A DNA stretch of 64,000 bases from Pristiophorus japonicus (taxonomy: Eukaryota): the NCBI RefSeq assembly GCF_044704955.1, contig NC_091980.1:129580001-129644000 (forward strand). The letters run 5' to 3'. The notes beneath the pieces were generated by a model. It did no database searches. It was not told where the DNA came from and was given only the letters and a program-made list of their open reading frames with translations. Every line of letters starts with the position of its first letter. Positions within the stretch are counted from its first letter, which is position 1. Positions 2,489 through 59,982 of this stretch are shown here, piece by piece. The position numbers and the translations under genes are program-made.

Positions 2489-2950
2489 CCTGGACAAGGT
2501 GGCCGTCAGCAGGGCAGCGGGCGTTCGAGGTGGTCGTTCGGCCCGACTGTCCACCTCTCGTCCACGGCTACATTCGTGCCCGGGCGTCCCTGGAGACGGA
2601 GCATGTGGTGTCCATCGACATGCTCGCGATCTTCCGTGAGAGGAGGGACTGGAGTGCATCATCACCCCTGGCAAACAAATTTTAATTTGATTACTATTGT
2701 TTAAAGTTTAATTTGTTTACTGTGATGGTTTTAGTGCCTCTCCCCCCTTTTAGCCAGGGATCACTTGTATAACTTGTGTTTCAATGCCTTAAAAAAAAAG
2801 GGGGCACTTGAAAAGTTTTTGGAGTGTGCCCCCACTCCCCCCCTTTAATCAGGAGGCATTTGATTATTAGTTTACAACAAAAATAGTTGTGTGCCTTTAA
2901 ACAGGGGAGCCATGTTTGACTTTAAATTGTCAATTGCCGGCAAAAAGAAG
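2489..2950 (+). mobile_element. 5'-truncated Tx1-type (L1 superfamily) non-LTR retrotransposon: ORF2 C-terminus plus 3' UTR
   Basis: GC-rich degenerate coding stretch (KVA...VVRPDC.PL..GYIRAR.SLE.EH.VS...FRER.GLECIITPG.QILI*, stop at 2688-2690), then an AT-rich 3' UTR with CCCC/GGGG pairs and an A-rich end. Family assigned from recalled similarity, not a search. Confidence 0.65.
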
Positions 2951-2954
2951 GGTC

Positions 2955-3125
2955 AAACAATGATGTTCATTCTTCAAAGTTCATGACTGGCTCTGGGAGT
3001 CATGGCCCCGCCTCCCTTTATTTGATTGGTGCTCTGACAAAGGCTGCAACTTGTGATTGGGTATGATGAATGACACTCACAGCTAGGTTGTCCCACCCTG
3101 GATTATCCAGCAGTATAAAGACAGG
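2955..3125 (+). promoter_or_regulatory. Ferritin FT1 promoter
   Basis: GC box GGCCCCGCCTCCC (~3004), two inverted CCAAT boxes (TGATTGG ~3023 and ~3054), TATAAA at 3114-3119. Module is conserved in front of FT3, FT4 and FT5. Confidence 0.75.
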
Positions 3126-3150
3126 AGTTTGAAATTAGTTAACTCTTAGC

Positions 3151-3183
3151 TTCTTGCTTCAACAAGGCTTAGATTTTTGGAAA
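3151..3183 (+). promoter_or_regulatory. Degenerate iron-responsive element (IRE) remnant in the FT1 5' UTR
   Basis: TTCTTGC-TTCAA-CAAGGC-TTAGA versus the canonical ferritin IRE TGC-TTCAA-CAGTGN-TTGAA. The 5' arm and spacing are kept; the loop and 3' stem are mutated. Confidence 0.7.
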
Positions 3184-3194
3184 AGCAAATTAGG

Positions 3195-6505
<3,311 letters not shown>

Positions 6506-10390: not shown

Positions 10391-10464
10391 CTTTTGTGAA
10401 TTGGAGCCTGGATTCAAGGAAGATTCCTGATTGACAAATCCTGAGAGCCAATCATCATTGGTGA

Positions 10465-10943
10465 TAGAAACATAGAAAATAGGTGCAGGAGTAGGCCATT
10501 CGGCCCTTCTAGCCTGCACCGCCATTCAATGAGTTCATGGCTGAATATTCAACTTCAGTACCCCATTCCTGCTTTCTCGCCATACCCCTTGATCCCCCTA
10601 GTAGTAAGGACCTCATCTAACTCCTTTTTGAATATATTTAGTGAATTGGCCTCAACAACTTTCTGTGGTAGAGAATTCCACAGGTTCACCACTCTCTGGG
10701 TGAAGAAGTTCCTCCGCATCTCGGTCCTAAATGGCTTACCCCTTATCCTTAGAATGTGACCTCTGGTTCTGGACTTCCCCAACATTGGGAACATTCTTCC
10801 TGCATCTAACCTGTCTAAACCCGTCAGAATTTTAAATGTTTCTATGAGGTCCCCTCTCATTCTTCTGAACTCCAGTGAATACAAGCCCAGTTGATCCAGT
10901 CTTTCTTGATAGGTCAGTCCCGCCATCCCGGGAATCAGTCTGG
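10465..10943 (-). mobile_element. Young 5'-truncated CR1 LINE 3' end, inserted just upstream of FT2
   Basis: ORF 10555-10926 is the CR1 ORF2 C-terminus (LYSLEFRRMRGDLIETFKIL...RTRGH...FFTQRVVNLWNSLP). (CATAGAAA)-type tail. Near-identical to 34102-34525 and 38012-38490. Confidence 0.92.
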
Positions 10944-11568
10944 ATGTTATTCCTTCTTTGAATGCAGCTGGCCCAGTAGTATAAATAAAGGTGCTTCTGT
11001 AAGAAAAGGTTAATACTAGAACTGTGCAGGTGATAGTGTAATATAGGTCGTGAGGATGGCCTTCAAGTGTGTCAGAACTATAAAAAAGACTGTGAGGCTG
11101 CTGTCAACAAGCAGATCAACATGGAGCTCTGTTCCTTCTATGTTTACCTCTCCATGGTGAGTCTTGTATTCCTTGTTGCTACATTCTGAAAAGTTGGAAA
11201 TTCTCCAGTTCCATGAACTGGCTTTAAGCTGTATTTCTCTGGATTCCTTCCCTGGGGGAGAAGAGTCTTTGGGCAGTGAGGGCTTCAGGTGTGTAATACA
11301 GGGGGATCTTGTTGAGTTAATGGACTGCTCCCTGTAGCAGCTGCCCTCTGTTCAAGTTTAAAATCTGAAACCAGCTCAGCTGCTGCCTGAGTGTGTTACG
11401 GAAGAGCACAAACCTGGTCAGGGCCTTGTTGACCTGAGACAATGTTCAGTTTCAGTGGGGGATCTGTAGTGAGTGAAATGTGGGCAGGTCCTAACTAGTG
11501 ATCTCATTAATTGGAGGTGAAATATTGAGAATCCTGGCTTTGGAGCCCTGCTCACTGCTGAGATCTCT

Positions 11569-12310
11569 TGTAGGCATTAGGCACCTGCTGAATATATCTA
11601 AACACTAAGCATTAGGCACCTGCTGAATACACGAATATGTTTAAAGTGGCCAAATATAAAATGGCTGCCTGGAGGGCTCCTCCAAGCATGATGGGAAATC
11701 AGGTAGTCAAGCTGTGAACTATTGACTGAGACTGACCGAGCAATAACCCTGTGAGGCCCACTGCCAGGAATGCCTTGGATACAAGATAACTATAACAAAC
11801 CATTATAACTCCACACAGCAGAGCCCCGAGAAATAGAGATAAGGGGGGCCTACATCACATAACGAGGGCATGAATCAGCCCGAGATGACAAGAACCGAAT
11901 ATGTAATTCTAATAAGGAGGCTACCCAAAGACAGCACCCAAGGATAGTAAGATAAAGGGGGCCTGGACCATGTTACAAGATGCATGAGTAATTCCTAGCA
12001 ACACACACCTTAGCAACACATCTCTTGGCAACACATGAGCCACTTCACATTTAGAGACTAACTCTATCTATTGGTCTAATTGAATCTATAATCAGTATGA
12101 TTGGATAGTATCCAACCGAAATGGGCTGATGTAACTGTCGTAAACTGTTGTAAAACATATAAAAATCCATGAAACTATTTGTTCGGTGGAGAGTGGAATA
12201 CCTGGAGTTAACCAGAGGCTCTCTCCCCACCGGTGAAATAAAGACCGCTTTGGTGTTGGAACCGATTCTGAGTGTCGAGTGATTCTTCCGAGAAAACACT
12301 AACACTAACA
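11569..12310 (+). mobile_element. Solo LTR (~740 bp, ERV-like) in FT2 intron 1
   Basis: TG...CA ends, internal direct repeats, ATTGG boxes, CATATAAAA (~12157), AATAAA (~12237), approximate 4-bp flanks ctct/cact. Confidence 0.6.
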
Positions 12311-12379
12311 CACTATTGCTGCGAAAACTACTGGAGTGGAGGATTTTTTTCACTCCGTGCCCAATCTTGGATTAGAAAG

Positions 12380-13085
12380 GAAGAATAATCATTTCTATAG
12401 TGCCTTTCACTACCTTGGAATGTCCCAAAGTGCTTTGTAGCCAATGAAGGAGTTAAGTGTAGTTACCTATTGTAAAGTGGGAAATGCAGCCAGCCAAATA
12501 GTGCACAGTAAGCTCCCACAAACTGCAATGAGATAATGATCAGATCATCTGTTTTAGTGGTGAGGGTTGAGGGATAAATATTGGCTGGCACACTGCAGCG
12601 ATCTCCCCTGTTCTCTGAAGTATTAACTAGAACAAAGGAGTAGGCCATTGGTCCCTCAGCCTGATCCATCATTCAACAAAATCACTGCTGATCTTCTACC
12701 TCAACTCTAGTTTCCTGCACTGTCCCCATATCCCTTTGTTCCCTAAATATCCAATCTATTGATCTGTCTTGAATATACGCTTCTGGGGTAGTGAATTCCA
12801 AAGATTCACCACCCTCTGAGGGAAGAAATTTCTCCTCCCCTGACTCCTAAATGGCTGACCCCTTATTCTGAGACTGACCCCTGGTTCCTGACTCCCCAGC
12901 CAGGGGAAACCTCCTCCCTGCATCTACCCTGTCCAGCACTGTAAGAATTCTGTATGTTTCGATGACATCACCTCTGATTCTTCCAAACTCTAGAGAATAT
13001 AGGCTAGTGTAAATGTCTCTTCCTTGAGATCTTTCACATCCACCTGAGGACAGACAGGGTTTCTGTTTAACGTCTTGTGTGAATG
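12380..13085 (-). mobile_element. Deu-domain SINE interrupted by a CR1 3' fragment (~12627-13010)
   Basis: Reverse complement of the SINE tail and body (tatagtgcctttcac, ggttgagggataaatattgg). Confidence 0.65.
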
Positions 13086-16074
13086 ACCAGAAGTATTACT
13101 TATCCAGGAGTAGAATTGAGTTTGACTAGACCTCTTTCTTCCTGTTACAGGGAGGAGTGGCTATCCAACTCAGGTTAGTGAAGCAAATTGCACTTTAGCT
13201 AGTTAACAAATGGTATTTATTTTTGAAAGACTCAGAATTAGCTAACTAGGGGGAAAAATAATATTCTTGCATTGTAGATGAAGATCTATGTCTGAAGAAG
13301 CTGTTTAAAATTCTCTCCGCAGTCCTTCTACTTTGACCGGGATGATGTTGCCCTGCGTCACTTTGCTGAGTTCTTCAAGGAGCAGTCACATGAGGAACGT
13401 GAGCATGCTGAGAAACTGATGGAATTCTAGAATCAGCGTGCGGGCTGAATCATCTTGGCGGACATCAAGGTTTGGTTCAATAAATGAGTGGCCTTCTTTC
13501 AGAATCCCCTTGGCATAATTTGTTTTAAATACTTTCCAAAGCAATTTGTTCCAATTTGATTCCATGGTTCTGGTGGTGGAATGCAATAATTGCATATTCC
13601 TGTGATGCATTGTTTATGGTAACCTGGACGTCTGGTTGCTTTTTCACCTGTCTTCCTTCTACTTTCTCATGTATGTTGTTTAATTGATTGTAAGTGAACT
13701 GCCTGTGACTTTCCTCTTCAGAAACCAGAGCAGGATGAGTGGAGCAATGGTCTGGAGGCGATGTGGAGAGCTCTGCAGATGGAGAAGAATGTCAACCAGA
13801 GTCTGCTGGATCTGCACAAACACTCCACTGGGAGCACCGGCACTTATGTAAGTTCCTTCATGTGGGTTTTTGGGTACATTCGGGACATTGGAACATTGCT
13901 GTCCTGGAGCCTATTCCAAAGATCTCTGCCCAATAGTGTTGTGTTGGGGTATCTCTCCTGGGTTCTTCAGTTACTTGGGGAGAGGACTGGGAGGTTGGCC
14001 TGCTGTAGACATAAATGTGTTTCCAGCATCTGAGCACCCATTGTATAGGAGTTACTGAGTGAGTGGAGAAAATTTACATCAGTCTTAATAACCCCACTTG
14101 TCTATGCTCCAGTCCAAGAGGATTAAAATACCCAACTTTCGAGGGATAAGTTTGGATGTTGCTTGATCTGTTCCGGCCATAACTAGATTCCCTCTTTCAG
14201 TCGTGTGAGTTCCTGGAGACCCACTACTTGGATGAACAAGTGAAGATGATCAAGAAACTTGGAGATCAAATCACCAACCTGAAGAGATGGGGAACCCCTG
14301 AGAATGGAGTACCTGTTTGACAAGCACATTCTGGGGGAGTGTGACTGAACTGACTGATGGGATCAAACTATTTGTGTTTTGTACTTGTATTTACATAATC
14401 AGACCCCTGTCTTGTAGGGAATGATGGATTGTGACTTTGCATAAAGGGCTGAGACCCATCACACTAAATATACTGTTCAACATTGGATTGGGTTTTGTCT
14501 CCTTGTAAATTTGAGTGGTTGCTTATTTTTCATTTAACATGACTTGGTTTACATCAAACAAGAATTCCACTGAGCTGTGCAACAGTGTGATGGGATGCAG
14601 TCCTATGAAATGTGTTCTTCTAGTGTAATGTTGATGTATTGACTGGGATAATCAAGCACCTGTTGTAAGATCTAAAATGTTCAACTGTGCGTTCGGACAA
14701 TTGACAGCCCCATGGGATATTGGCCCAGTGACCAAAAGCCTGGTCAGATGTATGTATCAAGGAGATATTTTGGGAGGGATCTCCAGAGCTTGGAACTTAA
14801 AAGCTGTATAAAATTAACTGTTCCATCTATCTGCCATTATATTTTGTTGGAGTGAATTGTCATCAATGCAACATCTGTTAAAGACAGGGCCAACTTGCAA
14901 GTAAATCAGTGTTGCACCATTTCAGTCCAGTGAAGAAAAAGTCCTGGATTAGCTTCCTATTTAGTGTACCAGCCCTGTGAAGGGCAGTTTGTATTCAGTA
15001 GCTTATATAGATCTTGTTCAGTTATCCAGGCAATTCAGTAATGAGATTCACTACTGCTGCTATAGTCTTTCTGTTAAGCTTTATAGGCAGACAAGCACTG
15101 TCTCAGTACACTGAACTCTGGGCACTACAATTGGGTGAGGCAGAAAAGCAACCGGTGGCATCAGCTTGCTGTCATGGCTTCATTGGTTAGTGTGGGATAC
15201 CCTAGTGGGTGTGGTTCTGGCACAGCTTCTCTTCTGCCTCCTCCCATCATGGTTGAATAACTTGCCAACATAACCTCGATTCACCTGAATAAGGTATTGA
15301 ATGACTCACTATACTCCGACAAAATATAATCCTTCGTGAAGGAGTAAATGTATTTAATTAATTCCACGAAGCAAGAGGCACAAGATGTTAAACCCATTTC
15401 TCCCCTGCCCTGGCAGCAATGCCTAAACCCTCAATTTATAAGCCCACTTATACAATTATGTATTTAGTACCATTGCAAATTTCATAACTATCACCCTGGA
15501 TTAGATCTCCATTTCTCTCCTTCGCTGCCTTGAATGGATTCAAATGTTACTGGAATTTATTGGGTCGAATTAAATTGCCATGAACACGCATTCCTGTTTA
15601 ATGTCTTAGCAACTCTCAAGCACCTTTGGGGTATCAATGTTACAATATTTCATATATTGATGAGCCCCAGTTCCACGAGTCAGCCGTTTGCGTGCTGATG
15701 GGTTTGATGGCTTCATGTATTCAACAAAGTTTCCAGCTCACTCGATGTGAAACTTTACAGGGGTGCTCGTGTTTTAAGAATTACTTACAATTTACAGCAC
15801 AGAAAAAGACCATTCGGGCCAACTGGGCCATGCTGTGGTTTATGCTCCATGTGAACCTTCTCCCACCCCACTTCATCTAGACCTATTAGCATAGCCTTCT
15901 ATTCCTTTCTCCCTTGTGTTGATCTAGCTTTCCCTTAAATACATCTATATTCTTTGCATTCAGAGTTATTACTGCGGGTAGCTCAGTAAACGTACCGCTG
16001 CTGCTGTGGATTTTCTGTTAAGCTGTGTGGGCAAAGAAGCAAGTAACAGCTATAGAGACCCGCAATGTCTGGGC

Positions 16075-19000: not shown

Positions 19001-19200
19001 GACCAGGTAAGGACGGCATATTTCCTTCCCTCAGGACATTAGTGAAGCAGATGGTTTTTTACGACAATCCGATAGCTCCCTGGGCAACATTACTGATACT
19101 AGCTTTTTATTCCAGATTTTAATTTAATTTACTGAAATTAAATTCCCCAGCTGCCGTGGTGGGACTTTGGATCATTCGTCCAGGTCTATGAATTACTCAT
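16075..19200 (-). mobile_element. Degenerate CR1/L2-group non-LTR retrotransposon (endonuclease + RT)
   Basis: Fragments KQDKSIPANYHPISLLSIISKVME, LLTDVQFGLRQDHSAPDL, LLITTYRPPSADESVLLHVE. Duplicated at 43000-46430. Confidence 0.85.
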
Positions 19201-19229
19201 CCAGTAACATAACCACTATGTTACCGTAC

Positions 19230-20140: not shown

Positions 20141-20144
20141 CTTT

Positions 20145-20330
20145 TCCCAGCACATGAATAACATCGGTGCTGTTTCCTGCTCTAACAACAAACTGGAAAA
20201 TTTAATTCACTATGTTTACAATTTCTACCGTTCACTCACCTTCACATGGTCCATCTCTGTCACTTCACTTCCCTTCCTCGACTTCTCTGTCTCTATTTCT
20301 AAACATAGTCTATCGACAAATATCCAATGA
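20145..20330 (+). mobile_element. Penelope-like element RT fragment
   Basis: NNIGAVSCS..KLENLIHYVYNFYRSLTFTWSISVTSLPFLDFSVSIS, a typical PLE RT C-terminal motif. Paralog at ~56155-56340. Confidence 0.7.
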
Positions 20331-20446
20331 GTTGTTTGGATGTTGCTTCAAATCCGCAGATACCTGCAAATGACCAAACCACTGAACAATCCAGAACTAT
20401 TAAAAAGACACTCACTCGCAAACAACAGAGGATTCAATGAATGTTT

Positions 20447-20785
20447 CAAGGTGGCCATTAACTGGTCCAGGCAGAGCACGGTCGATGGGGTTTTCTCTCC
20501 GTCTGCCTGCCTCTCTTCTGCGGCTATATCCGTATCAGTGTGTCCCTGGAGAGGGAGCACGCGGTGTCTGCCGGTATGCTTGAGGCTTTCCGTGACCGGT
20601 GGGCACCAGAGGGACTGGAGTGCAGCGTGGATACAAGGAAATAATGTAACATTGAAAAGTTTTTATGTTAGTTTTGACATAATGTGGATCTTACAGTTTA
20701 TTCCCCCTTATAAAGGGGCACTTATGGTTTAAGTGTTTCCGATAGCTGATTTAATAATTCCAATTAATTAGCTCAAAGAGTAGAG
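20447..20785 (+). mobile_element. Tx1-type retrotransposon 3' remnant (variant B) upstream of FT3
   Basis: caaggtggccattaactggtccaggcag...gtgtccctggagagggagcacgcggtgtc...gggactggagtgc, followed by a cccccttataaagggg 3' UTR. Confidence 0.6.
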
Positions 20786-20861
20786 AATCCAATTAAACCT
20801 GTGACTCTGGATATTTGAACTGTGTTTGTGGAAAGTTCGGACAATTGAGATACTCATTAAG

Positions 20862-21106
20862 TTGTCAGCCAATGGTGCTCATTCTTCCAAGATGTGACTG
20901 GCCCTGGGAGTCCATCTTACCTCCTTCTTTACTTGATTGGTGCTCTGAGAGGCTGCAACTTCTGATTGGGTATTGATGACTGTCACACATCAGCATGACT
21001 GCCACACCCTGGATTATCCCTCAGTATTAATACAGGAGTTTGAGATTGAATAAATGTTATCTTCTTACATCTACAAAGTTTCTACTTCAGAAAATAAAAT
21101 AGTCAG
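20862..21106 (+). promoter_or_regulatory. FT3 promoter and 5' UTR
   Basis: CCAAT ~20869, TGATTGG ~20934 and ~20963, TATTAA 21025-21030. IRE position is degenerate (TAC-ATCTA-CAAAGT-TTCTA). Confidence 0.65.
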
Positions 21107-24077
<2,971 letters not shown>

Positions 24078-29965: not shown

Positions 29966-30370
29966 TCCTGAGAGGATAAGCGTTCCCAAGGCTGCCACAA
30001 TGAAGTCCAGGTGCAAGGAGATATTTGGATAGAAGCCTTTCTTTCTTTTTGGACTGCAGTCCATTCCATTGCTTGTAAAATGTCATGGTAACATAACAAG
30101 AACTCAAAATCCCACAGTCCGCACCACATTCTAGCTCCTGTGTGTACAGGTGCTCACTAAACTTGGAAGTGATGGAGTATCTGAGCACTTGCACTTGTCA
30201 CATTCCTCACACTCACTGTCCAGTCACCTGATCCGCTGTCGGTTGCTTTGCAGACTCACTGGTCTGCCTTTGAATGTTGCATCCACACATACCTGAAAAT
30301 GACCAACCCACTGAACCGAACAGAACTATTAAAAAGGCACTGACTCGCAAACAATGGAAGATTCAATTAA

Positions 30371-30689
30371 CCTGGGCAAGGGGGCCGGCAACAGGGCCGG
30401 GCAGCAGGCGTTCGAGGTAGTCGTTCGGGCCGACTGCCCGCCTCTCTTCCGTGGCTAAGTTCGTGCCCGGGTGTCCCTGGAGACGGAGCATACGGTGTCC
30501 ATCGTCACGCTTGCGGCCTTCCGTGAGAGGAGGAGCTGGAGTGCATCATCATCCCGGGTATAGAATTTTAAGTTAATTTGTTAAGTTTCCTTTCACATCT
30601 TTTGTTGCAGTCTTTATTGGTTGTGCCCCTTTAAAAAGGGGGCCCATACTTGAAGTTAAATTGACAATTGCCACCGGCAAAAAGAAGAG
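30371..30689 (+). mobile_element. Tx1-type retrotransposon 3' remnant (variant A) upstream of FT4
   Basis: Homologous to 2489-2950 (cccgactgcccgcctctcttccgtggc...ggagtgcatcatc). Confidence 0.6.
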
Positions 30690-30918
30690 TCAGCCAATGA
30701 TGTTCATTCTTCAAAGTTCATGACTGGCTCTGGGAGTCATGGCCCCGCCTCCCTTTCCTTGATTGGTGCTCTGACAGAGGCTGCAACTTGTGATTGCGTA
30801 TTGAGGAATGTCATTCACAGCTAGGCTGTCGCGCCCTGCATTATCCAGCAGTTTGGTGTTAACCAACTTTTAGCTTTGTGCTACAACAAGTCTTAGATTT
30901 TTGGAAAAGCAAATTAGA

Positions 30919-33900
30919 ATGGCTTCTCAAGTGTGTCAGAACTATCACAAGGACTGTGAGGCTGCTGTCAACCAGCAGGTCAACATGGAGCTCTGTTCCT
31001 CCTATGTTTATCTCTCCATGGTGAGTCATGTATTTCTGAGCACTTCACAATGGGACCTGTGCAATGTGAAGTTACTAGATTCTGTGCTGTATCCGGCCCA
31101 CCCCTCACTTGATGCACAGTGAATTAATTTGTTAAAGTTATACTATAATAGAAGTAATCACCTTGTGTATTCTTTAACAAACTGCCTTTATGTTCCTGAG
31201 CCATAGTTGGTGAATCTTAATTACTCTTTCCTGGGCCTTTGTGAGCTTGTTGTTGAAGTTTGTTTGGAATACACTTTGCATTCAATGCATGGCATTCAGG
31301 ATTCCTAACCTCCATTTCTAAATCACTCCATGGCCTTTCCTTACCTTGCTTTTTGCAATGAGGGGATTCAGTCTTCAAATTAGAAATAGACCATTTATGA
31401 GAGAAGTTGAGAAGCAATTTTTCATGTGTGGTGGAAGTCTGGAACATATTCTCTCTCCCTGCTTCCCACATTCTAACCACCTAAGGCTGTGGTTGCTTGG
31501 GCAAGTTTTTTGTTGGGTAAGGGTATCAAGGGATTAGAACATAAGCAATAGGAGTAGGCCATTTGGCTGAACTTCTCCCTCAATTCCACCTTCTGCACTC
31601 TCCCCATATCCTATAATTTCTTTATTTCCCCAAAGTATATCAATCTGTCTTGAATATACTCAACAACTGGGCATCCTCAGCTCTCTGGGGTAGAGAATTC
31701 CATAAATTCATCACCCTCTGAGTGAATAAATTTCAACTCCTCTCAGTCTTTAATGGCCAACCCCTTATTCTCAGACTGTAACCCCCTTGTACTAGATTTC
31801 CCCAGTTCCGGTTAAGATTTTCTCTGCATTATTCCTGTAAAGCCCCTTAAGAATGCTGTTTCAATTGGATTTGCACCTCATTTTACTAAAGTCTGTGGCA
31901 TACTAGCCTAGTCTACTGAATCTCTCGACATAGTGAAATCCCCTCATTCCAGGAACCAGTCTAGTAAACCTTTGTTCCACTTCCTAAGGCAAGTATCTCC
32001 TTCGTTTGGTGAGGAGACCAGAATTGTATACAATACTCCAGGTAATCCTCACCAATGCCCTGTATAATTGTAGCAAGACTTCTTTACTCTTAGCTTCTGT
32101 TATGAAGGAATTAGAGTCCAATGTAACATTTGCTTTCCTAATTACTTACTGGATAAATGGAGTTGAGCTGCAGATCTGACCATATTGAATGGTGGAACAG
32201 GCTTGCGGGGCTGAATGGCCTACTCCTGTTCCTAATGTTCTTGAACTCCAGCTTTACATACCAGTTTTTGCCCTTCTGTCTTTAATCTAACTCCCTTTGC
32301 TTTATTGGTGATAAAACCTTCAGCCATTTCTCCCCTCCCTACTCTGGAACTCTCCCCTAACCCCTCTGCTTCCCCACCTTGACCTTCACCGATGACCTCA
32401 AACTCTGAGGGGTGGTATCTGGTTGTCTGCTGAAATGCCTTGATTAGTGTTGAAGGTGCCAAATGAATGCTGCTTAGTTTTGGTTCCATGGGATGAATGT
32501 AGCCAGTAACATTTGGGCCAGATGTACTATGTGAATTGTGCACTGTGACTAGATCTCCTACTTTAAGGGATTTGCTTCTCGTTCCAGTAGTGTCCCTTGG
32601 CTAGCCTGTACAGAATAGATCTGGGTCAATAAACCATGATTGAAGTGGTACTGTGAGTAGTAATCTTTCTAATTTCTAAACTTAAAATTGATTAAGGTTG
32701 TAGTTTTGAGCATGTTCTATCCAAGCTGAATTGGTAACCATGGGATGAGACAGCACTGAAGGTAGCCATTGGGCCAGTGCTGGCTGTTAGGTGGAGCTAT
32801 CCAACTAGTCCTTCTCCCCTGCTCCATTTCATAGCCCTGCAAAAGGTCTGTATTATGTCTCTGACTGTTGCCATTTAATTTACTTCCACCATCCTTTCAA
32901 GTAGGCCATGCACTTATTTAAAAAAAAAATGTCCTTCTTGCCTATGGCAAGAGGATGCGGTCCAATAACCTGTGATTTTCCATTAGCCAGCTTCTCTATT
33001 GCTAGGGGGTTTTCCACTCTACCACATTAGTGAAGCCAGTAGGCTGGTGCTAGCATGTGTTACATTATACATGGAAATACAGGGAGACTGTGACCCCTTT
33101 AGCAGGAAGCAAAATTGAGTTTGGTTCTGGTACATTCAAAATAAAGGATGAATCTGAGTACAATGAGCAAGTGTGACGTCAACTCCTTTATAAGACTCCA
33201 GAGTGCAGGTACCTCATGGTAGGCCTGCTTATATACACCATGCTCCCAAAGGATGTTGGATCTCTTGGGATTCCAACAGGTAGGTGTGATGGTGGTGGTG
33301 GTCTAATACAGGTTAGAAGGGGTTAAATACATAACAGGCTTTATGCACAATAACCACAATAGTGGATCTGTCATGTGATGCCCAATACTCTTCTGATCCC
33401 TCCGCAGTCCTTCTACTTTGACCTGGATGATGTTGCCCTGCGTCACTTTGCTGAGTTCTTCAAGGAGCAGTCACATGAGGAACGTGAGCCTGCTGAGAAA
33501 CTGATGGAATTCCAGAATCGGCGTGGAGGCTGAATCATCTTGGCGGACATCAAGGTTTGGCTTAAACAGGTGTTCTGTATGGCTCCCAATACATTCAAAA
33601 GCAGTTGGTTCCAATTTACACCATAAACCAACCATTTGGACACTGGTCTATGCTGGTGATCAGGCTGCAGACATCTACTCCCAACTTGCTTTATCCAGCA
33701 ACATATCCTCCTTCTATCCCTTTTTCACTCGTGTACTTATTTAGCTTCCCCTTAAATACATCGATGCTATTCATCTCATCAAATTTAACTCCAGTGGTTG
33801 ATGGCTTAATGCATTAATTCTATATTCTAACACATTGGTTCATGGCATCCTAGATTCTGATTTTCATTTTTGCATTTTTCATCCCTAATTCCTTCAATTA

Positions 33901-34071: not shown

Positions 34072-34101
34072 GTAAGTTCCTCATATGGGGTTCTGGGTAA
34101 G

Positions 34102-37835: not shown

Positions 37836-38011
37836 ACTGACTGGATCAAGCTTAGTGTTTCGTACTTGTATTTATATAATTGGGGGACCCTCCGCCAGGC
37901 ATGTAGGGAATGATGGCTTGTGACTTTGTATAAATAAACTGTTCAACATTGGACTGGGTTTTGTCTCCTTGTAAGTTTGAGTGGTTGCTTATTTTTCAAT
38001 TAACATAACTT

Positions 38012-41536: not shown

Positions 41537-42999
41537 TTTACATCAAACAAGAATTACACAGTGCTGTGCAACAGTGTTATGGGATTTGGCCCAATGACCA
41601 AAAGCACAGTCAGAGGTATGTTTTAAGGAGGTACAGAGATGTTTAGGGAGGGATCTCCAGAGCTTGGGACTTGGACATCTGTATAAAATTACCTCTTCCA
41701 AATATCTGCACTTGCATAAATGACAATTCAATCGAATTAAAATACAAGTTGATGTAACATGTGTTTAACACAGGGAAATTTGCCAGTAAATCTGTGTTGC
41801 ACCATTTCAGTCAAGTGAAGAAAGTCCTGGATTAGCTTCCTCTTAAGTGTATCAGCCCTGTGAAGAGCAGTTTGTTTGCAGTAGCTACTACAGATCCTGT
41901 TCAGTTATCCAGGCACTTCAGTATCAGGACTCACCACTGCTGCTGTTGCCTTTCTGTTAAGCTTTGTAGGCAGACAAGCAATGTCTCAGCACATTGAACT
42001 CTGGGCACTAAAATTGGGTGAGAAGGGAAAGCAACAGGTGGCATCAGCTTGCTGTCACAGCTTCATTGGTCAGTGTGGATACCCTAGTCGGTGTGGTTCT
42101 AGGACAGCTTCTCTTCCACCCGCTCCCATCATGGTTGAATAACGCACCAACACAACCTAGATTCACATGAATAAGGAATTGGGTAAGGTATTGAAAGACT
42201 AACTGTACTCCAACAAAATATAATCCTTCTGGAAGGAATAAATGTATTTCATTGCACAAAGCAAATGGCCCAAGAAATTAAACACATTTCTCCCCTGCCC
42301 TGGCCCTAATGCCTTAAACTCTATCAATTTGTATTTAATACCACTGTGCATTACTCAACCATCACCCTGGATTGGATCTTCATTTCTCTCCTTCACGGCT
42401 ATGGATGGATTCAAATGTTAATTCCTCAGCTCCAATAATCCAGTGTTTACAAGTTATTTTTAGGTATTTAGCCGAGGACTGTAGTGGGTGCAATTAATTT
42501 GCCATGGACACATTCCAGGTTAATGTCTTCACAACTCTCAAAAGCACCTTTGGGGTAGCGATGTTACAAAATGTCATATATTGATGAGCCACAGTTCCAC
42601 GAGTCAGCCTGGCTTTGCGTGCTGATGGGTTTGATGACTTCATGTATTCACCAAAGTCACCAGCTGACTCGATGTGAAACTACAGGTGCTCGTGTTTTAA
42701 CAATTACTTACAATTTACATCTCAGAAAAAGACCATTCGGGCCAACTGGGCCATGCTGTGGTTTATGCTCCATGTGAGTCATCTCCCACCCCACTTCATC
42801 TAGACTTATTAGCATATCATTCTATTCCTTTCTCCCTCAAATTTATCTAGCTTCCCCTTGAATGCATCTATGCTCTTTGCATTCAGAGTTATTACTGCGG
42901 GTAGCTCAGTAAACGAACCGCTGCTGCTGTGGATTTTCTGTTCAGCTGTGTGGGCAAAGAAGTGAGTAACAGCTATAGAGACCAGCAATGTTTGAGCTC

Positions 43000-45900: not shown

Positions 45901-46430
45901 TTACTACAGCCCTGTAGACCATGAGCTTGGTAACAGTTTTGAGGGCCTGGTCTTGACTAGCTTGTGGGACAGTTCTCCCCATTTTGGCACAACATTCCAG
46001 ATGAGTGAGGAGGACTTTGCAGGGTCGACTGGGCTGGGTGTACCATTGTCATGTCAGAAGCCGGTGCCAAGGTCGATGCCGGGTATCCGTCATGTTTTAT
46101 TCTTATTAATGTTTCCCGTAGTGGTTTGTTACAACTGAGTGGCTTGATAGGCCATTTCAGAGGGCAGTTAAAACTCAACCACATTTCTGTGGGTTTGGAG
46201 TCGCATATAGGCCAGACCGGGTAAGGATGGCAGATTTCCTTCCCGAAGGACATTAGTGAAGCAGATGGGTTGTTACGACAATCCGATAGCTCCCTGGGCA
46301 ACATTTATGATACCAGCTTTTTATTCCAGATTTAAATTTAATTAACTGAATTTAAATTCCCCAGCTGCCGTGGTGGGACTTTGGATCATTAGTCTAGGCC
46401 TCTGGATTACTCATCCAGTACCATAATCAC
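43000..46430 (-). mobile_element. Duplicate of the CR1/L2-group LINE at 16075-19200
   Basis: LLTDAQFGLRQDHLAPDLITALVQTCTTELNSRGEARVTAFDIKAA. Colinear with the 16-19 kb copy. Confidence 0.85.
45285..45951 (-). mobile_element. 5'-truncated RTE LINE with 8-bp target-site duplication
   Basis: ORF 45569-45982 (MVYRAVVIPALLYSSKTWT...QLRWAGHIVRM). TSD CTTGACTA at 45277-45284 and 45952-45959. Absent from the paralog at ~18740. Confidence 0.9.
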
Positions 46431-47299
46431 GATGTTACCGTACTCTTTGCATCTCTCAATGGCACTTTTGGAGTATCGATGTCACCACAATTCATACGTT
46501 GATGAGTCACAATTCTACAAGTCATGTTGGGTTTTGCGTGCTGATGAGTTTCATGGCTTCATGTTTCAGATAAAACAAATTCTTCAGCTCACTCGATGTG
46601 AAAAACTTTACAGGTGCCCTTGTTTTAAGAATTACATAGAATTTACAGCACAGAAAAAGGCCATTCAGCCTGGCAAATTGCAGTGGTGAGCAGTCCTTCT
46701 TGAACGTAAAACGCATCAAGGATGAGGTGAGAAAACGAATTAGACAAGATCGATTTAATCGTCTTTCAATCATGAGCATGGAGAGCGAAGTACTGAGAGG
46801 ACTTGACTTCACACACTGAGCCTCCTCCCAACTTCATTTAACCCGATCAGCATATCCTTCCAATAATTCCTCCCTCATGTGTTTATCCAGCTTCCCCTTA
46901 AACACTGTCTATGCTTTTTGCCTCAACTATTCCTTTTAATAGCGAGTTAAAGATTCTAAACACTCTGAGTAAAAAAGTTTCTCTTGAAGTCTCTCTTAGA
47001 TTACGAATTCTATGGTGATCAGAACTCTGCACAATACTCCAAGTGTTGTCTAGCCAAGGTTCTAGATAAATTTAACATGCTGAACAGGGATGTGGTTCAG
47101 CTGCAGGCGTTCCTCGCTCTTAGCTCAGAACTGAGCGAATGGTTAACCCTCATCTGTGCCTTTTTATCTCTAGAATTGACTATTTCAATGCTCTCCTGCT
47201 CGCCTTACATGCTCCATAAACTTAAGCTTATCCAAAACTCTGCTGCCTGTAACAGACACCTAGTCCATTCACCCATAACCCCTGTGATTGTGGACCATC

Positions 47300-47504: not shown

Positions 47505-50500
47505 ATTGGTGACGAGTTAAAAAATACGAGCTTTCACCCAACCATGTCTGTTGGAATTTTGGAGTGATTCATGGAAGGGGAAGACTGGGAGGATTTCACT
47601 GATTGCCTCGGCTGGTACTTCATAGCCAATGGATTGGAAGGAACCGATAACGCAATTAAGCGCAGGTTCTCCTCACAGTTTGTGGGTAAAAAATTTATGG
47701 CCTTATCAAGAATCTCCTCTCACTGACTGACTCGACAACGGATAAGACTTACAATGAATTGTGTACGCTGGTTTGGAACCACTTTGAACTGAAGGAAAGC
47801 ATCATCATGTCGAGGTATCATTTCTTTACTCACAATCGCTCCGAGGGCCAGGACGTGGCGGAATTTGTCGCCGACCTGAGACGTCTCGCTGAGCCGTGCA
47901 ACTTCAGAGCTGCGTTGCAGGAAATGCTGTGGGACATTTTCGTGCTTGTCATTGGCCACAAGGTCATCATTCGAAAGCTGCTGGCTGCTGAATCTCTCGA
48001 CTTGAGCAGTGCCATCATGATCGTCCAGGCATGCATGTCTTCGGACGAAAACTCGAAACAGATATCTTCCCAGCATCGAAGCTCACCGGCAAGTACTGTG
48101 CATAAAATAATATCGTCGGCAGACAGAGCTGCACATGGCAGGGCCTACTCGTCCGCATTCGTACGACCTGTAACTGCTCAAAGTGTGCCATTGGGGGCGA
48201 AACAAATCTCGCCTGGTTGGCATTGCGGGGGCTATCATTGGGCCCATCAATATCGATTCAAGAATAAGTGTGCAAAGGCGGTGGGGCACCTTCAGTGAAT
48301 GTGTCCGCAACCGAGCAAGCATGCTGCGACACACCACGTGGCCGAGGATGATCGATCCAGTGTGGATCAAGCGGCTAAGGCAACTCAACCTGAGGTACAG
48401 GATGGAGAAGTGTATGGGGTACATTCTTTTACCAAATTCCTCCGATAATGCTGGAAGTTAAATTAAATGAGGTTCCAGTATCCATGGAATTGGACACGGG
48501 TGCGAGTCAGTCAATAATAAGCCAGAGGGCTTTCGAAAAGCTGTGGGACACGAAGGCAAAAAGACCCAAACTGAGCCCAATCAACACGAAGTTGTGTACC
48601 TACTCCAAAGAGCTCATACCAGTCATTGGCAGCGCGGCAGTAAAGGTATCGTATGATGGAGCTGTGCATGATTTATCGTTGTGTATTGTTCCAGACAATA
48701 GCCCAGTGCTGTTCGGCAGGGGTTGGCTTGAGAAAATTAAATGGAACTGGAACGATATTAAAGCCTTATCCTCAGTGGATGACGCTTTGTGTGCTCAAGT
48801 GCTGAGCAAGTTTCCCTCGTTGTTCGAATCAGGCATTGGCAACTTCACAGGAGCCAAGGTGCAGATCCACCTTGGCCCTGATGCAAGACCCGTTCATCAC
48901 AAGGCTCGGGTTGTTCCGTACATGATGTGGGAGAAGGTCGAGATCGAACTGGACAGACTTCAACGAGAAGGAATCATATCACCAGTCGAGTTCAGCGAAT
49001 GGCCCAGTCCAATTATCCCGATGTTGAAAAGTGATAGCACGGTCAGGGTCTGTGGCGACTACAAGGTAACAATCAACCGAGTCTCGATACAGTATCCATT
49101 ACCCAAGGCTGACGACCTGTTTGCAATGTTAGCGGCGGGGAAGTCGTTCACCAAATTGGACCTGAATGCTGCTTACATGACACAGGAGCTGGTCAAATCT
49201 TCAAAAAAAATTATTTGTATCAACACGCACAAAGGACTGTTTATATACCACAGATGCCTTTTTGGAATTTGCTCGATGGGAGCCATATTTCAGAGAAATA
49301 AGGAGAGTTTGCTGAAGTCCTTCCCGATAACTGTCATCTTCCAAGATGGCATCCTGATCGCCGGTCGCGATGCCACCGAATACCTGCAAAACCTGGAAGA
49401 GGTTCTACGTCATCTGGACAGAGTGGGACTCAGGCTAAAACACTCCAAGTCTGTTTTCATGGCACCAGATGTTGAATTCCTGGGGAGAAAGATTGTGGCA
49501 GATGACATCAGGCCTAGGGACTCGAAGGCAGAGGCCATTAAGAATGCACCCACACTCCAGAGTGTGACGGAGCTGCATTCGTTCCTGGGTCTTCTCAACT
49601 ATTTCGGTAACTTTCTACCTAGTTTGAGCACATTGCTAGAGCCTTTGCACATGTTGCTAAGAAAGGGTAACAACTCAAATCTCAAGACAGAGCCTTTGAG
49701 AGGGCCAGGAACCTGCCATGTTCCAATAAATTACTGGTACACTATGACCCATATAAGCGATTAGTGCGGGCCTGCGACGCCTCTTCATATAGGGTCGGTT
49801 GTGTGCTCCAGCAAGCCAATGTATCAGGCAAACTCCAATCAGTTGCCTACACATCCAGAAGTCTGTCTAAAGCCGGATAGAGCCTATAGTTTAGTAGAGA
49901 AAGAGGCTTTAGCATGCATATATGGGGTTAGGAAAATGCACCAATACATATTAGGGCTTCGGTTTGAACTTGAAACAGACCACAAGCCGCTCATTTCATT
50001 GTTTTCTGAGAACAAAGGTATAAACACCAGTGTCTTGGGCACTGACATTATCCGCTTATGATTATGTCACCCGCCACAGACCAGGCTCTGAAAACTGTGC
50101 TGATGCGCTCAGCCGGCTACCATTTCCCACAACCGGGGTGGTAATGCCGCAGCCCGCAGACTTGTTGTTGGTCATGGATGCGTTCGAGAGCGAGGGATCA
50201 CCCTTCACGGCTCGCCAAATTAGGACCTGGACCAGCCATGATCCTGTGCTGTCAAACGTAAAAAGGTGTGTCTGAAATGGAAATTGGTCTGCCATTCCCA
50301 GGGAAATGCAGGATGAAATTAAGCCTTATAGCCACCACAAAGATGAATTGTCTGTTCAGTCTGATTGTCTGTTATAGGGTAATCGTGTCGTTAGGCCAAA
50401 AAAAGGCAAGGAAACTTTTGTGCAAGATTTACACAGCAGCCATCCAGGCATTGTCATAATGAAGACCATTGTCAGGTCTCACGTTTGGTGGCACGGCATT

Positions 50501-54000: not shown

Positions 54001-55329
54001 TCCCTCTGTCTCCCTGCATAGGTTCCCATCCCACTGCCATATTAGTTTATCCTCTCCCCAACAGCACTAGCAAACACTCCCCCAAGGACATTGGTTCCGG
54101 TCCTGCCCAGGTGCAGACCATCTAGCTTGTACTGGTTCCACGTCCCCCAGAACCGGTTCCAATGACCCAGGAATTTGAATCCCTCCCTTTTGCAACACTC
54201 CTCAAGCCAGGTATTCATCTGAGCTATCCTGCGACTCCTACTCTGACTAGCACGTGGCACTGGTAGCAATCCTGAGATTACTACCTTTGAGGTCCTATTT
54301 TTAATTCAACTCCTAGCTCCCTAAATTCAGCTTATAGGACCTCATCCTGTTGTTTTCCTATATCGTTGGTACCTATATGCACCATGACAAATGGCTGTTC
54401 ACCCACCCCCTTCAAAATGTCCTGCAACCGCTCAGAGACATCCTTGACCCTTACACCAGGGAAGCAACATACCTTCCTGGAGTCTCGATTGCGGCCGTAG
54501 AACCGTCTATCTATTCCTCTTACAAATAGAATCCCCTATCATTATAACTCCTCCACTCTTTTTCTTGCACTCTTGTGCAGCAGAGCCACCCACAGTGCCA
54601 TGGACTTGGCTGCTGCTGCCCTGTCCTGATGAGTCATCTTCCCCAACAGTAGCCAAAGCGGTGTATCTGTTTTGGAGAGGGATGATGGCAGGGGACCTCT
54701 GCACTTCCATCCTTCCACTGCTCTTCCTGTTGGTCATCCATTTCCGATCTGTCTGTGTAACCTTTACCTGCGGCAAGACCAACTCACTGAATGTGCTATT
54801 CATGGCATCCTCAGCATCGCGCATGCTCCAAAGTGAATCCATCCGCAGCACCAGTGCCGCAATGCAGTCTGTCAGAAGCTGCAGCAGGGTACACTTCCCA
54901 CACATGTAGTCGTCAGGGACACTGGAAGCGACCCTGAGTTCCCACATAGCACAGGAGGAGCATGACACGTGTCCGAGCTCTCCTGCCATGATTTAACCCG
55001 AAGATTAACTTAATTTGGCAACAACAATGATAAAGGTTACCTACTGACAGGGAAAAGAAAAAGAAAAATTACTCACCAATCACCAGCCAATCACTTACCC
55101 CCTTGGCTTTCGATTTCTTTCTACTTCTTTGTTTACCATCAGCCCCTGCAGCTGCACCAGCTAATCTTTTATAGGCCTCCGTCCCTGGCCTCTCCTCAAC
55201 TCACCGATGCTCCTCACTCACGGGTATTTTATAGGCCTCTGAACCCGGATTCCCGCCTCTCCTCGACTCACCGACAATCCTCACTCGCTGGCCTTTTATA
55301 GGCCTCCGACCCCGGACTTCTGCCTCTCC
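51005..55329 (-). mobile_element. Full-length CR1 LINE inserted in the Gypsy integrase
   Basis: 5' UTR with repeated ttttataggcctc units, ORF1 start MAGELGHVSCSSCAMWE...CGKC zinc finger (54507-54989), esterase, APE and RT. Degenerate TSD ttaacggag (50996-51004) / ttaatgaag (55330-55338). Confidence 0.93.
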
Positions 55330-55875
55330 TTAATGAAGAGAGGCCTCAAAAACAGGCTTTCCCTTGTACACCTGGATCTCAATGATCATGTCAAAATCAG
55401 AAGGCAACAGCAGCAATGGTACCACGATCGCGCGGCTGTATCATGTGACATTGCTGTTCATGACCCTGTGTTTGTCCTGAATTATGGTCATGGTCCAAAG
55501 TGGGTTGCTGGCACGGTTTTGGCCAAGGAGGGGAACAAGGTGTTTGTAGTCAAACGGTTAAATGGCCAAACGTGCAAGAAGCACATTAACCAAACCAAAC
55601 TGCGATTCACAGACAATCCCGGAATAAATTGAAGATGACATCATCATTGACCAACCAACACACATCCAACCATCAGTTGAGCCTTGTGTGATTCATGAAG
55701 ACATACCTACCATCCCTGATAGCCCTGTCAGACCGACTGTTCCGCAATGCAACAATGGTCCTACTAACTCACCCAAGTTTGGTTTCAAACTGAGAAGATC
55801 AACCAGGGAGCGAAAGGCCCCAGACCGTCTCAACTTGTAAATGCAACCTATACCAAGGACTTTAAGGGTGAATGA

Positions 55876-56069
55876 TGTTATGTATGTTAACTGGGTTTTA
55901 CCTGGCGTGACTGTCGGAGTCCTAATGGTCACTGGCAGACAATGCAAGCTGTGTATATAATGTTGGCAGCCATGTCGAATCCTCACTTTGAGAATAAATA
56001 AACTGGAGTAAGGTCATGCCTGAACTAGCTCACCGTACTTAGCCTCGTGGAGTTATTTGATACATAACA
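55876..56069 (+). repeat. Gypsy 3' LTR
   Basis: Direct repeat of the 5' LTR with an 11-nt deletion and several substitutions. Confidence 0.92.
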
Positions 56070-56461
56070 GCAGCATTGGCTCCCAGTCTGACAGCGCCTC
56101 AAATTCAAGATTCTTATCCTTGTATTTAAATACCACCATGTCCCCTCCCTCACCTCTTTTCCTGGCACATTGATAACATCGGTGCTGTTTCCTGCTCTCG
56201 GAATAAACTGGAAAATTTAATTCACTATGTTTCCAATTTGCACCCTTCTCTCACCTTCACATGGTCCATCTCTGTCTCTTCCCTTCCCTTTCTCAACTTC
56301 TCTGTTTCTATTTCTAGACATAGTCTATTGATAAATATCCAATGAGTTATTTGGATGTTGCTTCAAACCTGCAGATACCTGAAAATGACCAACCCACTGA
56401 ACAAACCAGTACTAGTAAAAATACACTGACTCGCAAACAACAGAGGATTTAATGACCCTTT

Positions 56462-56790
56462 CAAGGTGGCCATTAACTGGTCCAGACAGAGCACAGTCGA
56501 TGGGGTGTTCTCTCCGTCTGCCTGCCTCTCTTCTGCGGCTATGTCCGTGCCTGGTTATCCCTGGAGAGGGAGCACGCAGTGTCTGTTGGTATGCTGGAGC
56601 CTTTCCGTGACCTGTGGGCACCAGAGGGGCAGCGTGGATACAGGGAACTAACATAAAATTTGAAAGATTTTTATGTTAGTTTTGCCATAATGTCGATCTT
56701 TCAGTCTATTCCCCTTTATAAAGGGGGCACTTATGGTTTAAGTGTTTCCGATAGCTGATTTAATCATCCCAATTAATTAGCCCAAAGAGT
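56462..56790 (+). mobile_element. Tx1-type retrotransposon 3' remnant (variant B) upstream of FT5
   Basis: Homologous to 20447-20785. Confidence 0.6.

Positions 56791-57116: not shown

Positions 57117-59982
<2,866 letters not shown>

What the first reader, a model, noticed from the sequence alone, without database searches (positions are those of the whole stretch)
2489..56790. Tx1-type retrotransposon 3' ends sit just upstream of four ferritin promoters, in two distinct variants
Seen: remnants at 2489-2950, 20447-20785, 30371-30689 and 56462-56790, all in the same orientation as ferritin. All begin at nearly the same point (CAAGGTGGCC) after the same upstream flank. Variant A (FT1, FT4) ends ...TGCATCATCAC... 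and joins right at the promoter (before TCAGCCAAT-like sequence). Variant B (FT3, FT5) ends ...TGCAGCGTGGATACA..., has a different 3' UTR and joins about 80-90 bp further upstream. Established: Tx1-clade elements are often sequence-specific for multicopy targets (U2 snRNA, tRNA arrays, microsatellites). Inference: this may be a Tx1 lineage that targets ferritin promoters. Alternatively, one old insertion was retained or converted and co-opted as a GC-rich regulatory element.
Basis: partly seen in the sequence, partly recalled or inferred. Interest (0 to 1): 0.7.

Follow-up and report, generated by a model that had tools for sequence, protein, structure and literature searches.

The report
Overwritten Tx1 fossil at ferritin promoters
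One old piece of a jumping gene landed just upstream of a shark ferritin gene, was copied as the gene multiplied, and was then probably overwritten at least twice by other members of the same jumping-gene group, which points to a repeatedly re-used landing spot rather than an element that specifically targets ferritin.

Summary
Four of five tandem ferritin genes carry, on the same strand, about 200 bp of Tx1-like ORF2 C-terminus plus a 3' UTR, ending 245-330 bp before the ATG.

A dedicated targeting lineage is not supported. All four share one 5' junction. A ~20-bp target-site duplication pairs that junction with the sequence just after variant B's 3' end, even in the A copies, which lack the right-hand copy. 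So there was one founder insertion, multiplied by gene duplication.

Simple decay does not explain A versus B either. Their last ten codons and UTRs differ by 42-46%, against about 20% for the promoters, and A matches a very high-depth, dispersed Tx1 family in reads. Variant A is itself two variants: FT1 carries a third UTR type.

Best reading (0.6): serial replacement of one remnant by other Tx1 3' ends, with loss of 3' flank, as described for Alu. Two Heptranchias ferritin gene models also begin with a longer Tx1 remnant, so a recurrent hot spot in this gene array is possible. No whole genome was available; variant B's family was not tested.

The parts
2388..2493 (+). FT1 shared upstream flank, ending in the left copy of the founder target-site duplication (about 2473-2492)
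2489..2690 (+). FT1 Tx1-like ORF2 C-terminal remnant (variant A; 5-bp deletion, and a 10-bp deletion shared with FT4; stop at 2688-2690)
2691..2886 (+). FT1 long 3' UTR of another Tx1 subfamily (A2); high read depth that ends in the 2860-2894 bin
2887..2952 (+). FT1 remaining tail of the FT4-type (A1) UTR; Tx1 origin inferred, read depth here is at promoter level
2953..3297 (+). FT1 ferritin promoter (CCAAT boxes, TATA at 3114) and exon 1 (ATG at 3195)
11056..11157 (+). FT2 exon 1; no Tx1 remnant or flank upstream; promoter broken by CR1-like pieces (young copy at 10464-10943)
20335..20446 (+). FT3 shared upstream flank with left target-site-duplication copy
20447..20655 (+). FT3 Tx1-like ORF2 C-terminal remnant (variant B)
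20656..20780 (+). FT3 variant-B 3' UTR with C/G hairpin and terminal stem-loop, ending CAAAGAG
20781..20864 (+). FT3 84-bp spacer; its first ~20 bp are the right copy of the founder target-site duplication; absent from A copies
20865..21209 (+). FT3 ferritin promoter and exon 1 (ATG at 21107)
30269..30375 (+). FT4 shared upstream flank with left target-site-duplication copy
30371..30576 (+). FT4 Tx1-like ORF2 C-terminal remnant (variant A1)
30577..30689 (+). FT4 short 3' UTR (A1); its start matches 15 of 15 bases of the commonest loose-end consensus in reads; joins the promoter directly
30690..31021 (+). FT4 ferritin promoter and exon 1 (ATG at 30919)
56350..56461 (+). FT5 shared upstream flank with decayed left target-site-duplication copy
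56462..56789 (+). FT5 Tx1-like ORF2 C-terminal remnant and 3' UTR (variant B)
56790..56873 (+). FT5 84-bp spacer with right target-site-duplication copy
56874..57210 (+). FT5 ferritin promoter and exon 1 (ATG at 57118)

Best explanation
One founder event, then serial overwriting. (1) A Tx1-type LINE inserted by target-primed reverse transcription upstream of an ancestral ferritin gene. It was cut short to the last ~70 codons of ORF2 plus the 3' UTR and left a ~20-bp target-site duplication. The duplication is shown; the mechanism is inferred. (2) Tandem duplication of the gene copied the remnant (shown by shared flank and junction). (3) In the A branch the remnant's sequence and the 84-bp spacer were replaced by the 3' end of another, very abundant Tx1 subfamily, which kept the old 5' junction. 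The different source is shown indirectly; direction and one-step mechanism are inferred. (4) In FT1 a further subfamily's 3' end landed inside the A1 UTR and merged in register with the old reading frame (structure shown, mechanism inferred). The likely mechanism is a new insertion primed a little downstream whose 5' end pairs with the homologous old remnant, or insertion followed by recombinational collapse of the tandem copies. The old remnant thus acts as a landing pad. No ferritin-specific endonuclease is needed, though open germline chromatin may raise the rate.
For: Target-site duplication: 5 of 8 comparisons of the last 30 bp before the element with the 30 bp at B's 3' end gave p < 0.02 (A copies 0.0008-0.012); 0 of 12 comparisons with A's own 3' junctions did (lowest 0.036). 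A versus B: last 30 columns of the ORF 13/30 different against 41/210 in the promoter (p 0.008); UTR 45/107 and 50/108 against 44/196 and 41/197 (p 6e-4, 7e-6). The UTR is not hypermutable: FT3 and FT5 UTRs are 92% identical, their promoters 89%. Reads laid on FT1 show an abundant family whose loose-end consensus matches FT4 and FT1 with 2 and 3 mismatches in 22 bases and B with more than 3. Another loose-end consensus (175 contigs in X1) matches FT4's UTR start 15 of 15, the only exact match in the window. High depth over FT1's long UTR stops in the 2860-2894 bin (9,312, then 139 in X1), where FT1-FT4 homology resumes. Precedent: Alu replaced by another subfamily with removal of 142 or about 500 bp of 3' flank, 2 of 120 loci (PMC554112 passages).
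Against: A tree of the remnants (56 rows, 57 columns) does not reject A+B as one clade (p-AU 0.24). Over codons 1-59, non-CpG A-B divergence (30/123) is no higher than the promoter's (39/186, p 0.49). Third-position bias of fixed A-B differences is only suggestive (9:6 against 5:14 at non-CpG sites, p 0.08; 10:13 against 13:23 at all sites, p 0.60). No crossover step is visible inside the core. A's last 65-69 bp align better to Tx1 tails (FT4 p 0.0005-0.01; FT1 p 0.01-0.13) but also weakly to B's spacer (p 0.02-0.09), and an 8-mer is shared at matching distance (p 0.007). FT1's copy of that tail has only promoter-level depth. So A's junction may lie further upstream, or the spacer may have been lost by a separate deletion. 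Reads were laid on FT1 only, which biases the matches toward A; B's source family was not observed.
Confidence: 0.6

Rival explanations
1. Single insertion with neutral divergence. A and B descend from one founder, A lost the spacer by an ordinary deletion, and only FT1's long UTR is a second event.
For: One shared junction and target-site duplication. A+B clade not rejected. Core divergence over codons 1-59 similar to the promoter. FT4 and B UTRs are still alignable (p 0.001), with the hairpin at the same offset.
Against: C-terminal and UTR divergence about twice the promoter's, although the UTR evolves no faster within B. A matches abundant-family loose ends where B does not. B's residues at codon 62 (D in 8 of 21 relatives) and codon 36 (R in 18 of 50) are common family states rather than decay.
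Confidence: 0.14
2. Independent insertions into different paralogues (B at the founder site, A1 84 bp downstream), followed by exchange between paralogues that gave A the flank and 5' junction of B.
For: The flank is less diverged between A and B than the promoter (8/92 against 39/186 non-CpG, p 0.01). A-B divergence steps up at the junction. FT5 looks like a mosaic (B-type promoter, A-like exon 3 and intron 3), so paralogues do exchange.
Against: Needs one more event than the best reading. It gives no account of FT1's nested replacement, which happened in cis.
Confidence: 0.08
3. A Tx1 lineage (B and/or the Heptranchias type) has a sequence or chromatin preference for the upstream region of the multicopy ferritin genes.
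For: Two Heptranchias perlo ferritin gene models begin with a Tx1 remnant that runs at least 7 codons further 5' than the founder here, so it probably comes from a separate insertion. In the tree it lies outside a starred clade (98/95) that holds A and B. [quoted passage not shown] One contig in X3 joins a Tx1 end to promoter position 3083 in opposite orientation (depth 17, 45 bases on the short side; absent in X1; weak).
Against: The four window copies are one founder, not four events. The three 3' junctions lie at three different sites. Peak depth of the A family is 920-1,140 times the deepest promoter bin, about 30-37 times after a worst-case 31-fold correction that I assumed; depth is not a copy number. 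Contigs leave the A2 end into other sequence. B+Heptranchias as one clade is not rejected (p-AU 0.23). The Heptranchias evidence is two predicted proteins, without DNA or distance.
Confidence: 0.1
4. The remnant is kept because it has been co-opted as a CpG-rich upstream regulatory element (not exclusive of the best reading).
For: CpG observed/expected 0.91-0.93 in A cores against 0.34 for the window. CpG kept in both paralogues 19 of 30 against 52 of 120 in five control duplicates. Present upstream of 4 of 5 genes here.
Against: That difference has p 0.066, and recent replacement also explains high CpG. B cores are lower (0.44-0.67). Sequence turnover of 27-31% between A and B argues against sequence-level constraint. 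Three of the five genes, including remnant carriers FT4 and FT5, have in-frame stops.
Confidence: 0.1

Closest known systems
Alu gene conversion/replacement with retrotransposition-associated 3' flank deletion (loci Ye5AH24, Ye5AH27, Ye5AH181) and near-parallel insertion hot spots (Ye5AH161, Ye5AH16); PMC554112, passages read
   Same: An old element keeps its place while its sequence is replaced by another subfamily's, and 3' flank is lost (142 and about 500 bp there, 84 bp here). Repeated events occur at one small locus.
   Different: Here the element is an autonomous-type LINE 3' end, the process seems to have happened at least twice in one gene family, and it lies at the promoter of a tandem protein-coding array. 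Replacement is inferred from paralogues, not from orthologous empty and filled sites.
Target-specific Tx1-clade LINEs: Xenopus Tx1L (Tx1D), Keno (U2 snRNA genes), Kibi and Koshi (microsatellites), Tx1-Mar (Mariner-N4_AMi); PMC4494074, passages read
   Same: ORF2 C-terminal homology to Tx1-named proteins; presence in a multicopy array; target-site duplication at the founder.
   Different: No single shared 3' junction, no series of independent 5' truncations, and the A family appears dispersed and very abundant. A protein-coding gene promoter is not among the targets listed in those passages.
Chimeric L1 formed when new L1 cDNA recombines with an upstream endogenous L1 and deletes the DNA between (Gilbert 2002, Symer 2002; recalled; only their titles were seen, in the reference list)
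   Same: Predicts the architecture seen: old 5' junction, new 3' part, new 3' junction, intervening DNA lost.
   Different: Described for human L1 in cultured cells as I recall it; not checked here.

Membership tests
Tx1 clade non-LTR retrotransposon | Homology to the ORF2 C-terminus of Tx1-named proteins | tested here: met
   FT3 frame hits P0003 at 63%, E 3e-9. P0005 (same cluster) hits all four remnants and medaka P0156 at E 9e-33; a member of P0156's cluster is named 'transposon TX1 uncharacterized 149 kDa protein'. The link is two-step.
Tx1 clade non-LTR retrotransposon | ORF2 with APE endonuclease, RT and C-terminal zinc knuckle | not testable with these tools
   The remnants lie downstream of these domains and hit no Pfam family. 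Three full-length relatives carry Exo_endo_phos, RVT_1 and a sub-threshold zf-RVT.
Tx1 clade non-LTR retrotransposon | RT-domain phylogeny inside the Tx1 clade | not testable with these tools
The C-terminal tree has 57 columns and no named Tx1 reference families.
Tx1 clade non-LTR retrotransposon | Target-primed insertion signature: 5' truncation, intact 3' end, target-site duplication | tested here: met
   Founder: ~20-bp duplication in 5 of 8 comparisons at p < 0.02. No duplication at the A1 or A2 3' junctions (0 of 12).
Target-specific Tx1 family (Keno/Kibi/Tx1-Mar type) | More than 20% of copies flanked by the same target (criterion of PMC4494074) | tested here: inconclusive
   For the A family, depth ratios of 920-1,140 and other 3' flanks argue against it, but contig depth is not a copy number.
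Target-specific Tx1 family (Keno/Kibi/Tx1-Mar type) | Independent insertions: same 3' junction, different 5' truncation points | tested here: not met
   The reverse holds in the window: one 5' junction and three different 3' junctions.
Retrotransposition-associated replacement (Alu/L1 type) | Old flank and junction kept, element sequence from another subfamily, 3' flank deleted | tested here: met
   The protein tree alone cannot show separate sources.
Retrotransposition-associated replacement (Alu/L1 type) | Pre-replacement state seen at the orthologous locus in an outgroup | not testable with these tools
   No shark genome DNA could be fetched; paralogue B serves as a stand-in.

The most novel reading that the evidence does not exclude
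The upstream region of the ancient, ovary-expressed shark ferritin array is a standing landing site for Tx1 LINEs. Several lineages have inserted there independently in different shark orders, and each resident remnant captures and is refreshed by later 3' ends. This would be a protein-coding gene array used as a Tx1 haven, possibly keeping a CpG-rich element next to the promoter.
Probability: 0.2. Interest if true: 0.75.

Novelty: new variant of a known kind. Interest (0 to 1): 0.45.

Why it matters
Paralogues in this array preserve successive stages of one insertion site, with the founder's target-site duplication still readable. That makes it a natural test case for how often new LINE copies overwrite old ones, a process described for Alu and little studied for Tx1. 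It also warns that same-site elements of different subfamilies do not by themselves show targeting. If the Heptranchias case and the wider array show many independent events, a germline-expressed protein-coding array would join RNA genes, microsatellites and transposons as Tx1 landing sites.

Tried and rejected
No whole genome was held, so genomic 3' junctions could not be tabulated. Viral contigs: 0 of 25 pattern matches confirmed. Metagenome scan: 2 of 43 matches kept, both 17-residue hits at E 2e-4, treated as chance and not used. Protein tree and AU tests were inconclusive (p-AU 0.24 for A+B, 0.23 for B+Heptranchias); 53 of 58 matching relatives were kept (match of 35 residues or more) and P0005 was dropped as a duplicate of P0003's cluster. 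FT2 as an empty site: rejected, no flank match (p 0.85). An empty-site joint (flank to promoter) was not among the 15 of 31 joints shown; absence proves nothing. No RNA holder was listed for the FT4 region. Rfam: 0 matches at gathering score in the window and no IRE among 5 chance-level matches around FT1. A scan for recalled ARE/MRE/GC-box motifs found nothing in the shared flank. The idea that A extends 6 bases further 5' than B was dropped: those bases are the end of the target-site duplication. The idea that the Heptranchias remnant is the same insertion as B was weakened, because the founder junction here is original and the Heptranchias piece is longer. Earlier-findings look-ups by place and by sequence were blank. 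Literature searches showed no title or abstract on Tx1 at ferritin genes; one search returned 0 papers. The library lacks most subscription journals, I saw no Repbase entries, and bioRxiv supplements are closed, so prior description is not excluded. PMC1920257 and PMC3747384 (passages) added only background.
Full report
Setting. The window holds five tandem ferritin heavy-chain-like genes on the + strand (exon 1 at 3195, 11056, 21107, 30919 and 57118) among LINE and LTR-element pieces (the clade labels CR1, RTE, Penelope and Gypsy are recalled). The named close relatives of both the remnant and the ferritins are from cartilaginous fishes. No whole genome was held.

Observation. Four of the five genes carry a GC-rich ~200-bp segment and an AT-rich tail upstream of the promoter, at the stated coordinates and on the same strand. 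FT3's open frame hits P0003 (63%, E 3e-9; 1 hit among 12 candidates). Its longer cluster mate P0005 hits these four places (E 4e-13 to 4e-7; next hit 0.61) and aligns to the C-terminus of a 1,298-aa medaka ORF2 (E 9e-33). That protein has endonuclease and RT domains, and its cluster includes a protein named TX1 149 kDa. The remnants are the last ~70 codons of a Tx1-like ORF2 plus 3' UTR. Clade membership rests on this two-step homology, because no RT is present.

One founder. All four copies share a ~105-bp flank and the same start in the element. The last ~20 bp of that flank recur directly after B's 3' end. Five of 8 comparisons gave p < 0.02, strongest for the A copies (0.0008-0.012); the others gave 0.06, 0.08 and 0.52. 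None of 12 comparisons with A's own 3' junctions reached 0.02. When the whole flank was searched against the whole spacer and promoter the match was not significant (p 0.08-1.0), so the signal depends on its position at the junctions. I read this as a target-site duplication. The founder's 3' junction was then the B site, the shared 5' junction is the original truncation point, and the A copies inherited it and later lost the 84-bp spacer that holds the right-hand copy. The four copies are therefore not four targeting events.

A and B are probably not one sequence decaying. A-B differences are 12-18% in the flank, 19-22% in the promoter and 27-31% in the core. For codons 1-59 the non-CpG excess over the promoter is not significant (p 0.49), and third-position bias is only suggestive (p 0.08 without CpG sites, 0.60 with all). 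The last ten codons (13 of 30 columns) and the UTR (45 of 107, 50 of 108) differ about twice as much as the promoter (p 0.008, 6e-4, 7e-6), while the UTR is 92% identical within B. Contigs of four coded runs laid on FT1 (80% likeness) give summed depth of 1.39 million (X1) and 426,000 (X3) over the C-terminal codons, against 230-1,513 and 40-374 over the promoter. Their loose-end consensus upstream of A's shared 10-bp deletion reads, by eye, LAAFRERWA. It matches FT4 and FT1 with 2 and 3 mismatches in 22 bases and does not match B within 3. The commonest loose end after the stop matches FT4's UTR start 15 of 15. A therefore belongs to an abundant, dispersed family. The lay was biased toward A, and B's family was not observed. 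A protein tree (56 rows, 57 columns) places A and B apart without support and cannot reject them as one clade (p-AU 0.24).

Variant A is two variants. FT1 and FT4 share the 10-bp deletion and the last ~65 bp (p 0.001), but FT1 has 195 bp and FT4 44 bp of unrelated UTR between them (p 0.60). FT1's segment has high depth in every bin (9,312-72,247 in X1) and falls to 139 just after its A-rich end at 2886. Some contigs leave this end into other sequence (tables 5c and 8). The simplest order is that FT4 keeps the A1 state, and that in FT1 another subfamily's 3' end landed inside the A1 UTR and merged in register with the old frame between about 2646 and 2692. Caveat: the shared last 65-69 bp align best to Tx1 tails (FT4 p 0.0005-0.01; FT1 p 0.01-0.13) but also weakly to B's spacer (p 0.02-0.09; shared 8-mer p 0.007), and show no high depth on FT1. 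A's exact 3' junction is therefore not settled.

Mechanism. Shown: founder duplication, shared junction, three UTR types, loss of the spacer in A, and an abundant family matching A. Inferred: a new copy primes a little downstream of the resident remnant and its 5' end pairs with the remnant's homologous reading frame, or it inserts and the tandem copies later collapse by recombination. Either way the old 5' junction stays, the 3' part is new and the DNA between is lost. The same outcome is reported for Alu: replacement by another subfamily with loss of 142 or about 500 bp of 3' flank in 2 of 120 loci, and near-parallel insertion hot spots (PMC554112, passages). With many paralogues and a very abundant family, two such events need no special targeting (inference).

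Evidence that keeps a hot spot open. Two Heptranchias perlo gene models named ferritin heavy chain B-like (XP_067834083.1 = P0094, and P0158; 2 hits among 11 candidates) begin with a Tx1 C-terminal remnant spliced to ferritin exons. It runs at least 7 codons further 5' than the founder here and falls outside a starred clade (98/95) that holds A and B, though B+Heptranchias is not rejected (p-AU 0.23). It is probably a separate insertion, but I saw only predicted proteins. I have not shown that the window is from another species; the abundant family's methionine at codon 36 (place 2597) agrees with a Pristiophorus protein, P0134. A Greenland shark preprint reports 179 FTH1 and 155 FTL copies in clusters shared with the white shark and expressed in ovary (10.1101/2024.09.09.611499, passages), which is the kind of multicopy, germline-active locus where insertions could recur. 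One X3 contig joins a Tx1 end to promoter position 3083 in opposite orientation (depth 17; absent in X1 of the same sample; weak).

Against dedicated targeting. Known target-specific Tx1 families use U2 genes, microsatellites or transposons and are called specific when more than 20% of flanks share the target (PMC4494074, passages). Here there is one 5' junction and three 3' junctions, the reverse of the expected pattern. A's peak depth is 920-1,140 times the deepest promoter bin, or 30-37 times after an assumed worst-case 31-fold overcount; the tool warns that depth is no copy number. Earlier scan notes describe shark-like Tx1 families that target Penelope tails (unchecked); I did not test whether the families here are the same.

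Co-option. A cores keep CpG (observed/expected 0.91-0.93 against 0.34 for the window; B 0.44-0.67). CpG retention between paralogues is 19 of 30 against 52 of 120 in five control duplicates (p 0.066). This is not enough to claim protection or function.

Verdict. The feature is real. The best reading is one founder insertion, duplicated with the gene and overwritten at least twice (0.6). Rivals: plain decay plus deletion (0.14), a ferritin-preferring lineage (0.10), independent insertions with paralogue exchange (0.08); co-option (0.10) could accompany any of them. I class it as a new variant of a known kind. No title or abstract on Tx1 at ferritin genes appeared, within a library that lacks most subscription journals. 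Interest 0.45.

Noticed in passing
window 11056-14345, 30919-37930, 57118-60100: FT2, FT4 and FT5 have in-frame stops in exon 2; FT2 and FT5 also appear frameshifted in exon 1. FT1 and FT3 read open in exons 1-3.
   Followed up: partly
window 56350-60100: FT5 looks like a mosaic: B-type promoter and intron 1 start, but exon 3 and intron 3 closer to FT1, FT2 and FT4, a sign of exchange between paralogues.
   Followed up: partly
window 2388-2488 and homologues: The ~105-bp flank is better conserved between A and B than the promoter (p 0.01), either from recent conversion or because it is a conserved upstream element; no recalled motif was found in it.
   Followed up: partly
window 3145-3194 and homologues: The short 5' UTRs have no iron-responsive element by Rfam; FT1 has what looks by eye like a decayed one (consensus recalled).
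   Followed up: partly
window 2642 / 3083 (table 5): One contig in run X3 joins a Tx1 C-terminal piece to the ferritin promoter in opposite orientation: a possible further insertion in another paralogue.
   Followed up: no
window 3296 and 2405-2486: Run X6 has a loose end that reads like spliced ferritin exon 2, so X6 may be RNA; run X5 has one contig with B-type letters over the upstream flank. Single contigs, not evidence of expression.
   Followed up: no
window 20150-20327 and 56170-56340: A Penelope-like RT fragment (label recalled) lies directly upstream of the flank in both B copies.
   Followed up: no
window 10464-10943, 34093-34525, 38018-38494: Young CR1-like 3' ends, 95-99% identical to each other; one sits inside FT2's promoter and one inside FT4's intron 3.
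   Followed up: no
window 14712-20057 and 41579-47297: A ~5-kb segmental duplicate (80-88% identity) lies upstream of both B copies, and a Gypsy-like LTR-element remnant (47690-50058, 55243-55629; label recalled) interrupts it before FT5.
   Followed up: no
P0094, P0158, P0028, P0074, P0134: Several public shark and ray gene models include Tx1 C-terminal remnants as predicted exons, probably annotation artefacts.
   Followed up: partly
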